Part shown: piece after piece, positions 16,158 to 16,747 of the stretch
How positions within the stretch are numbered: the first letter of the stretch is position 1
Layout of the letters: each line of letters starts with the position of its first letter
Source of the DNA: Octopus vulgaris
Taxonomy: Eukaryota
NCBI GenBank assembly: GCA_951406725.2
Contig: OX597817.1
Span: 139,872,001 to 139,936,000, forward strand
DNA: 64,000 nt
Reading direction: 5' to 3'
The notes under the pieces: generated by a model
What the model saw: the letters and a program-made list of their open reading frames with translations, nothing else
Told to the model about the DNA's origin: nothing
The model's database searches: none
Made by a program: the position numbers and the translations under genes

Positions 16158-16747
16158 CATTGTTAATTCTATCGGACCAAAGGGACACAATGCTTGTCTC
16201 CCTTTTTTACTTGTTATTATCAGTCCGAATATGCTTGATGCACGTTCGAACTGGAGAACAAGCTACTCACTGCATTTTGTCACGGAGAATATATCTCGCT
16301 TGTTGACAAATGGTGTGTATCCACCTAGATCAGCTTGCAGCGCTACCTACCTAGACTGTGAGATTTACTTACGGTGAGCCGCCGTATAACGCTGCCAGTC
16401 ATCGTATGGTGACTGGAAATGCGTAAGAGAGGTAATTTCTTAATTTAGCTCGCAGTGTCGTCTGCGTAGTGTCTGTGGCTGATGAGGAGATAACTACTCC
16501 GAAATGCGCGTACCTCACAGTCTATGTAGGTGGCGCTGCGAGCTAATCTAGGTGTATACACACCATTTGACAAAAAACGAGATCTATTCTCGTGACAAAA
16601 CGCAGTGATTAGCTTGTTCTCCAGTTCGAACGTGCATCAAGCATATTTGGACTGATAATAACAACTGAAAAAAAGGAGACAAGCGAGAAGCAGGAAAGGA
16701 GATAAACATTGTGTCCCTTTGGTCCGAAAGAAGGGGAATTAACAATG
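16158..16747 (+). mobile_element. PLE-type foldback element (inverted arms 16158-16362 / 16514-16747) containing a hammerhead
   Basis: About 200-bp imperfect inverted repeat read directly; HHR in the spacer. Confidence 0.75.
16473..16520 (+). ncRNA. Type I hammerhead ribozyme, intact core
   Basis: ctgtgg CUGAUGA GGAG-auaacua-CUCC GAAA U-GCGC-GUA^ ccucacag: complete core, 4-bp stem II, short stem III with palindromic loop, bulged stem I; predicted cut after 16512. Confidence 0.85.

What the first reader, a model, noticed from the sequence alone, without database searches (positions are those of the whole stretch)
16158..16747. Foldback whose inverted arm ends at the ribozyme cleavage site
Seen: the left arm (16158-16362) is the reverse complement of 16514-16747, and the intact HHR is predicted to cut after 16512, so homology stops within about one base of the cut. 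Inference: the inverted copy was reverse-transcribed from an RNA whose 5' end was made by self-cleavage, a genomic fossil of ribozyme activity. In a read-through RNA the left arm would sequester the 3' strand of stem I (cucacag), giving a built-in OFF conformation.
Basis: partly seen in the sequence, partly recalled or inferred. Interest (0 to 1): 0.75.

Follow-up and report, generated by a model that had tools for sequence, protein, structure and literature searches.

The report
Snap-back foldback in hammerhead retroelement copy
One copy of a common small mobile repeat with a hammerhead-ribozyme motif carries a backwards duplicate of its own end plus neighbouring DNA, likely made when the new DNA folded back on itself during insertion; across the family, copy ends cluster modestly just past the predicted cut, a possible trace of ribozyme cleavage.

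Summary
The foldback is real: 16158-16362 matches the reverse complement of 16514-16747. It lies in a dispersed 343-nt repeat with a type I hammerhead motif and Penelope-type layout; 105 of 223 sampled sites have head-to-head arms. (1) The family cut is AUC^ after 16514, not GUA^ after 16512; this copy has ACC there, so its ribozyme is probably impaired. (2) The arm also duplicates 84 nt of an older, unrelated repeat beside the insertion, through the same junction, so it was most likely copied from DNA (cDNA snap-back at a 2-nt AT microhomology), not from cleaved RNA. The family test is mixed: 5' ends within 2 nt of the cut are not enriched (9-10 vs 8.8 expected), but the 10 nt starting at the cut hold 27 ends against 7 and 8 in the neighbouring bins. 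This is seen in both samples and is not a parser artefact, but the window width was chosen after seeing the data and the bin ranks second of 24. At most about 8% of cDNAs stop there. The scan noted similar foldbacks on other DNA. Cleavage and transcription are untested.

The parts
16158..16211 (-). Outer part of the left arm: inverted copy of target DNA 16664-16747 (an older, unrelated repeat), now lacking 23, 6 and 1 nt
   Evidence: 51 of 54 aligned bases match; the template belongs to a repeat family that continues past 16747; run X9 still has the 23-nt piece in the arm, so that deletion came later
16212..16362 (-). Inner part of the left arm: inverted copy of the element's 3' part (16514-16663; family columns 194-343)
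   Evidence: 138 of 150 aligned bases match; 1 shared and 4+8 private differences from the family majority
16363..16364 (.). 2-nt AT microhomology at the inner junction; it fits both the start of the central copy and the family sequence continuing the arm
   Evidence: Alignment of 30 loci; extension of 2 nt; family contigs align to the arm through 16364
16363..16663 (+). 5'-truncated monomer (columns 43-343) of a 343-nt hammerhead repeat, ending at the family's main 3' end
   Evidence: median period 343 nt from 29 periods, GC 0.43
16473..16520 (+). Type I hammerhead motif: stem I 16473-16478/16515-16520, core 16479-16485, stem II 16486-16489/16497-16500, GAAA 16501-16504, palindromic stem III region 16504-16513; family cut between 16514 and 16515; this copy has C at U16.1 (16513)
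16664..17043 (+). Older dispersed repeat into which the element inserted; about 200 nt that precede this part in other copies are missing here
   Evidence: Relatives at 61-80% identity over long matches; profile hit 16668-17043, E 4e-65, no upstream part found in 12001-21000

Best explanation
This is a 5'-truncated copy of a 343-nt non-coding hammerhead repeat with Penelope-type layout, and its inverted left arm was likely made by the new cDNA snapping back on itself during insertion rather than by copying a self-cleaved RNA. Inferred steps: a Penelope-type RT/endonuclease acting in trans nicked an older repeat at 16663/16664 and primed cDNA at the family's main internal start site. The cDNA ran through the uncleaved ribozyme to column 43. 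Its 3' end re-annealed by AT on its own strand beside the ribozyme's palindrome and was extended back through the element and 84 nt into the target, then end-joined to the left flank, with loss of target DNA and no target-site duplication. That this junction lies at the cut is likely coincidence, helped by a family-wide local excess of ends in the 10 nt starting at the cut. That excess (about 4%, at most about 8% of cDNA passes) may record a minority of self-cleaved templates or RT stalling at the palindromic helix.
For: Shown: the arm includes the flank through an identical element/flank junction. The flank is an older repeat that continues beyond the arm's end. No target-site duplication was found (longest exact repeats 6-7 nt), whereas ordinary head-to-head pairs often have one (8 nt or more in 30 of 108, vs 21 of 540 mismatched pairings). 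A second flank-inclusive foldback, L164, has its inner junction at columns 5/51, far from the cut. Family layout: 283 of 420 3' ends lie at two sites about 40 nt apart, 43 of 108 pairs have one main and one tail end, and only 5 of 420 lie at columns 190-198. More than 90% of cDNA passes read through the cut. Literature: PLE inverted 5'-truncated arms and tails (PMC8557442, PMC3846280); two internal RT start sites and uncleaved RNA as dominant substrate in vitro (PMC11167929); inverted target duplications by self-annealing with 2-bp microhomology at L1 insertions (bioRxiv 2024.12.14.628481; PMC10191854, 4 events, about 0.3-0.4% of insertions).
Against: The junction does fall in the family's peak: 27 ends at columns 194-203 vs 7 and 8 on either side; first sample 18/6/7, second 9/1/1; inversion junctions 16/3/3, flank junctions 11/2/4. 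This is the strongest step of 210 positions (P 0.0005-0.002), and a simulation of 7,998 uniform truncations shows no such parser bias (843 vs 821). A 2-nt microhomology is weak. No empty site was recovered. The L1 precedents duplicate the reciprocal (5') side, whereas here the primed side is duplicated. No autonomous partner was found: 0 of 50 GIY-YIG loci gave a significant match to the unit.
Confidence: 0.7

Rival explanations
1. One reading: the arm is a second cDNA that ran off the 5' end of a self-cleaved RNA (cut after 16514). It was primed from a DNA end that had first copied the flank, or from an RNA carrying transduced flank, and was joined head-to-head with a longer cDNA from uncleaved RNA.
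For: The arm ends 1 nt from the family cut. The family has a local peak of 5' ends at columns 194-203, with 5 at column 195 exactly vs 1.8 expected (P 0.03 by Viterbi placement, 4 and P 0.10 by leftmost placement). PLE protein extends both strands in vitro (PMC11167929).
Against: It needs an extra step to put 84 nt of target in front of the cDNA with an identical junction. There is no target-site duplication and no parent copy joined to this flank among 28 matches. The arm holds C17, which lies 5' of the cut. Two of the five column-195 ends share one junction with a 3-nt microhomology and may be one event (L124, L209).
Confidence: 0.12
2. Nick-primed second strand: RT copied cleaved monomers, jumping across the cut. 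The upstream RNA fragment's 3' end at the cut then primed plus-strand DNA that ran into the flank, and its 5' end was joined to the cDNA 3' end, closing the hairpin. This would explain both the position and the flank duplication.
For: It predicts an inner junction at columns 194-195 together with inverted flank, as seen. One locus (L170) has tandem units ending at the cut.
Against: It needs a 2',3'-cyclic phosphate end to be healed to 3'-OH (established hammerhead chemistry, recalled). The only other flank-inclusive foldback has its junction elsewhere (1 of 2). No direct evidence.
Confidence: 0.07
3. A later DNA-level event (replication template switch or break repair) duplicated the element end and flank long after insertion, with no link to retrotransposition.
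For: Arm identity to the central copy (91.9%) is above the median of 82% for 80 pairs. The flank is included.
Against: Arm and central copy share only 1 derived base against 4+8 private ones, so the duplication is about as old as the insertion. Inverted arms are the family norm (105 of 223 sites).
Confidence: 0.08
4. Selected regulatory switch: the arm is kept to hold the ribozyme OFF in a read-through transcript.
For: Predicted folding: the arm removes stem I completely. The structure is shared with run X9, which carries another organism label.
Against: The ribozyme here has C at U16.1. The arms have drifted by about 8% and by deletions. The same geometry occurs in 37 of 108 pairs.
Confidence: 0.03

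Closest known systems
Metazoan non-LTR retrozymes (Cervera and de la Pena 2020, PMC7229834; Li et al., bioRxiv 10.64898/2026.07.22.740005)
   Same: Non-coding monomer of 343 nt, GC about 43%, canonical type I hammerhead (helix I 6 bp, helix II 4 bp, short palindromic helix III), head-to-tail continuation of units, target-site duplications longer than 4 bp, autonomous PLEs in the same genome.
   Different: Mostly dispersed partial tandems: only 4 of 225 sites have two whole ribozymes in one direct run. The majority core has C at position 4. Circular RNA is not shown. The passages searched in PMC7229834 do not mention inverted arms (0 occurrences of 'inverted').
Endonuclease-positive Penelope-like elements and their solo or non-autonomous pLTRs (PMC3846280, PMC8557442, PMC4209133, PMC11167929)
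   Same: 5'-truncated partial tandems, an inverted 5'-truncated arm, a tail of about 40 nt on one end, two 3' ends matching two internal RT start sites, hammerhead upstream of them.
   Different: No ORF; no sequence link to the RT/GIY-YIG elements sampled from this genome. This copy also duplicates target DNA in inverted form, seen in 2 of 108 pairs.
L1 insertions with foldback inversion or inverted duplication of target DNA (PMC10191854; bioRxiv 2024.12.14.628481)
   Same: Short inverted duplication of target DNA (52-220 bp in PMC10191854), 2-bp microhomology priming by self-annealing, target deletion.
   Different: In those reports the duplicated DNA is on the reciprocal (5') side; here the duplicated piece is the primed side together with the element's 3' part.
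R2 retrotransposon HDV-like ribozyme defining the 5' junction (PMC3774820, abstract only)
   Same: Precedent that a self-cleavage site shapes genomic 5' junctions, and that junctions vary when the cut is at the element's 5' end.
   Different: Different ribozyme and element; there most copies are affected, here at most about 8% of passes.

Membership tests
Type I hammerhead ribozyme (family level) | Core C3 U4 G5 A6 N7 G8 A9 / G12 A13 A14 A15.1, U16.1, H17 with three helices | tested here: met
   Column counts. 48 of 136 passes keep the core (position 4 left free) and 18 also keep all stems. Position 4 is C in 140 and T in 43 of 190; PMC3088659 notes that U4C lowers activity in vitro but works in a viroid. 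Rfam gives no hit.
Type I hammerhead ribozyme (family level) | Palindromic helix III allowing a dimeric fold | tested here: met
   10-nt palindrome; columns 187/190 are C/G in 85, T/A in 32, mixed in 14 of 136 passes (Fisher P 3e-17; may reflect one inherited subfamily change).
Type I hammerhead ribozyme (this copy) | A15.1-U16.1 pair next to the cleavage site | tested here: not met
   ACC at 16512-16514 in the family register; the alternative GUA^ register has pair probability 0.003 and stem I duplex energy -2.3 vs -5.4 kcal/mol.
Type I hammerhead ribozyme | Self-cleavage activity | not testable with these tools
   Needs an in vitro assay.
Non-LTR retrozyme | Non-coding monomer of about 170-400 nt, GC under 45-50%, type I hammerhead | tested here: met
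   Period 343 nt, GC 0.434; longest stop-free frames over the unit are 63-87 codons.
Non-LTR retrozyme | Tandem arrays with a ribozyme in consecutive units | tested here: inconclusive
   4 of 225 sites have two whole motifs in one direct run and 139 have one; 29 sites have direct runs over 400 nt. Most are partial tandems.
Non-LTR retrozyme | Expression as linear and circular monomer RNA | not testable with these tools
   No RNA holder was listed; this is no evidence either way.
Penelope-like element, non-autonomous derivative | Partial tandems, inverted 5'-truncated arm, optional 30-40 nt tail | tested here: met
   105 of 223 sites have head-to-head arms; 165 main and 118 tail 3' ends of 420; 43 of 108 pairs have one of each.
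Penelope-like element, non-autonomous derivative | Target-site duplication | tested here: met
   8 nt or more in 30 of 108 pairs vs 21 of 540 null pairings; absent at this copy.
Penelope-like element, non-autonomous derivative | Sequence shared with an autonomous RT + GIY-YIG element of the same genome | tested here: inconclusive
   Autonomous elements exist (148 GIY-YIG matches; RVT_1 plus GIY-YIG in 2 of 2 ORFs scanned), but 0 of 50 fetched loci match the unit (best E 3.6). Only 150 of 6,136 candidates were scored.
Autonomous Penelope-like element | Own RT-endonuclease ORF | tested here: not met
   No ORF in the unit; shared flanks between sites are nested short repeats and a LINE-like fragment.

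The most novel reading that the evidence does not exclude
Genomic copies of this hammerhead repeat record self-cleavage in vivo: about 4-8% of cDNAs stop at or a few bases inside the 5' end made by the ribozyme. Breakpoint maps of Penelope-type repeats could then be read as a fossil cleavage assay, and this copy would be one such end, possibly through a second strand primed at the nick. My odds are about 0.4 for the family-level claim and about 0.2 that cleavage set this copy's junction.
Probability: 0.35. Interest if true: 0.6.

Novelty: new member of a known kind. Interest (0 to 1): 0.33.

Why it matters
The locus itself is an ordinary, probably dead, mobile-element copy. What could matter is the family statistic. 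Whether Penelope-type hammerheads cut in vivo, and whether cut RNA is ever a template, is open: the one in vitro system found uncleaved RNA dominant and no RNA-seq ends at the cut (PMC11167929). Here more than 90% of cDNA passes cross the cut, which agrees, but a small peak of ends just 3' of it suggests a cheap genome-only test that can be run on any high-copy family.

Tried and rejected
GUA^ register after 16512: rejected by family columns and pair probabilities. Tight enrichment at the cut: columns 192-196 gave 6 vs 6.5 expected in the first 347 segments and 9-10 vs 8.8 in 419 segments after correcting for how copies were sampled; not significant. Parser artefact for the peak: rejected by simulation over columns 150-240. 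The 23-nt gap as a polymerase slip during arm synthesis: rejected, since run X9 keeps it. Inverted-flank candidates L130, L154 and L212: simple repeats, dropped. Shared flanks as internal element sequence: nested short repeats. A spliced intron from a donor-like site near column 53 to the YAG at columns 133-135: no copy with that deletion among 225 sites. Transduction with a target-site duplication: only one 8-nt chance-level match. Autonomous partner: not found. No RNA holder listed. Empty site: not recovered; contigs of organism E cover the left flank to 16047 and leave holes that prove nothing. Rfam: no hammerhead hit at gathering or E-value thresholds. Sequence look-up in earlier findings: nothing. 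Rows dropped before counts: 6 segmental duplicates (L099, L100, L196, L136, L108, L102), segments under 45 bits or 30 columns, 2 sites without a qualifying segment, and 1 segment.

Full report
Observation. The inverted repeat is as described: 16158-16362 pairs with 16514-16747, with 138 of 150 matches in the inner part and 51 of 54 in the outer part. Locus-specific contigs from runs X1, X2, X3 and X9 span the outer junction; X9, with a different organism label, has the same arm and still holds the 23-nt piece missing from the window's arm, so the foldback is old and that gap is secondary. The window lies in a 2.8-Gb animal genome and holds no second copy of the central sequence within 64 kb.

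What the element is. A DNA search with 16363-16760 gave 78 matches; the best end at 16663. With six pattern searches I collected 231 sites, dropped 6 segmental duplicates, and parsed the rest with a jumping profile: 225 sites, 223 with segments, 420 segments. Family column is about window position minus 16320. The unit is 343 nt, GC 0.43, and non-coding. Of 420 3' ends, 165 fall at the main site (about 16663) and 118 about 40 nt further on; 43 of 108 head-to-head pairs have one of each. Head-to-head arms occur at 105 of 223 sites, and direct repeats of 8 nt or more flank 30 of 108 pairs against 21 of 540 mismatched pairings. This is the layout described for Penelope-like elements: partial tandems, inverted 5'-truncated copy and tail (PMC8557442, passages; PMC3846280, parts 1-2 of 5). 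The two ends are explained there by two internal RT start sites (PMC11167929, parts 1-2 of 4). Size, GC and ribozyme type fit non-LTR retrozymes (PMC7229834, passages), which a 2026 preprint derives from PLEs (bioRxiv 10.64898/2026.07.22.740005, part 1 of 5). The genome has intact RT + GIY-YIG elements, but none of 50 loci matches the unit, so mobilisation by a PLE is inferred from layout only.

The ribozyme. The family motif is a canonical type I hammerhead with a 6-bp helix I, a 4-bp helix II and a palindromic helix III region, the design thought to work as a dimer (PMC4209133, part 1 of 4 and passages). The palindrome is kept by a double change in 32 of 136 passes. The triplet is ATC in 129 of 167 passes, placing the cut between 16514 and 16515. 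The window copy differs from the common family form at 16508, 16509, 16511 and 16513 and reads ACC. PMC3088659 (passages) treats A15.1-U16.1 as the most conserved pair, with at least 10-fold loss in mutants. This copy's canonical-looking U4 is the minority state (43 of 190, against C in 140), probably CpG decay (inference). The copy is therefore likely impaired, not intact.

How the arm arose. The outer 54 nt of the arm copy 16664-16747, which belongs to an older repeat continuing to 17043. Both arms have the same element/flank junction. There is no target-site duplication, and about 200 nt of the older repeat are missing. Against the family sequence the inner junction has a 2-nt AT overlap. 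Arm and central copy share 1 derived base against 12 private ones, so the arm dates from about the insertion. The simplest path is a cDNA whose 3' end re-primed on itself and was extended into the target strand it was attached to. The template at the breakpoint was then DNA that had already been copied through the cut. Comparable self-annealing duplications are described for L1 (bioRxiv 2024.12.14.628481 and PMC10191854, passages). The other flank-inclusive case among 108 pairs, L164, turns at columns 5/51.

The family test. Within 2 nt of the cut there is no excess (9-10 vs 8.8). Column 195 alone has 4-5 vs 1.8 (P 0.10-0.03). After seeing the data I compared 10-nt bins: 27 ends at columns 194-203, 7 at 184-193 and 8 at 204-213. 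The pattern holds in both samples (18/6/7 and 9/1/1; the second sample's 204-213 bin is partly constrained by its anchors) and both junction types. It is the strongest step of 210 positions (P 0.0005-0.002) and is absent from simulated uniform truncations. Against it: the width is post hoc; against the 130-260 background the bin gives only P 0.015-0.03; it ranks second of 24 non-overlapping bins by rate, behind an unexplained peak at columns 134-143; and a few junctions may be inherited rather than independent. RT stalling or hairpin trimming at the 10-nt palindrome just upstream predicts the same shape without cleavage (inference). The excess is about 4% of 249 passes, with an upper bound near 8%. 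R2 gives precedent for variable junctions near a ribozyme cut (PMC3774820, abstract).

The OFF fold. The arm removes helix I in the predicted ensemble, but 37 of 108 pairs have this geometry and this ribozyme is mutated, so I read it as a by-product.

Novelty. The element is a new member of a known kind, and the foldback is a known layout with an uncommon target duplication. Paper searches listed no study that maps genomic 5' ends of such repeats against the hammerhead cut; the library lacks most subscription papers and I read no supplements, where such maps could stand. Two earlier notes of this scan describe similar foldbacks on other DNA; I did not check them. Interest 0.33, resting mainly on the suggestive family-level peak.

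Noticed in passing
family columns 134-143 (window 16454-16463): Largest peak of 5' ends in the family (26 ends; 9 at column 136 exactly, right after a YAG). It could be a transcription start, a splice-acceptor-related end or a structural stop; no spliced copy was found, and the parser simulation did not cover these columns.
   Followed up: partly
L170:1635-2032: Three tandem partial units; two end at the ribozyme cut (column 193-194) and rejoin at about columns 20-26. They share private changes, so one event; it may be a copied 5' cleavage fragment or a chance local duplication.
   Followed up: partly
L164:1347-2253: Second foldback that includes about 105 nt of flank in inverted form; inner junction at columns 5/51.
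   Followed up: yes
L251:2245-4587 and similar loci: A young autonomous Penelope-type family with many intact 781-codon RT + GIY-YIG frames; L265 also has a 479-codon upstream frame. My strict scan found no hammerhead in 20 such loci.
   Followed up: partly
window 16002-16093: Perfect 46-nt tandem duplication just left of the foldback; run X9 has a single unit, so it is younger than the foldback.
   Followed up: partly
window 17290-18150, minus strand: Broken LINE-like reverse transcriptase 3' fragment (recognised from recalled motifs in the frames); a related piece is nested inside family copy L131.
   Followed up: no
window 16625-16633: A sequence resembling a Pol III B box (recalled consensus) near the 3' end of the unit, well conserved in the family alignment; no matching A box was established.
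   Followed up: no
window 18605-19197: Three spaced copies of a 69-nt repeat.
   Followed up: no
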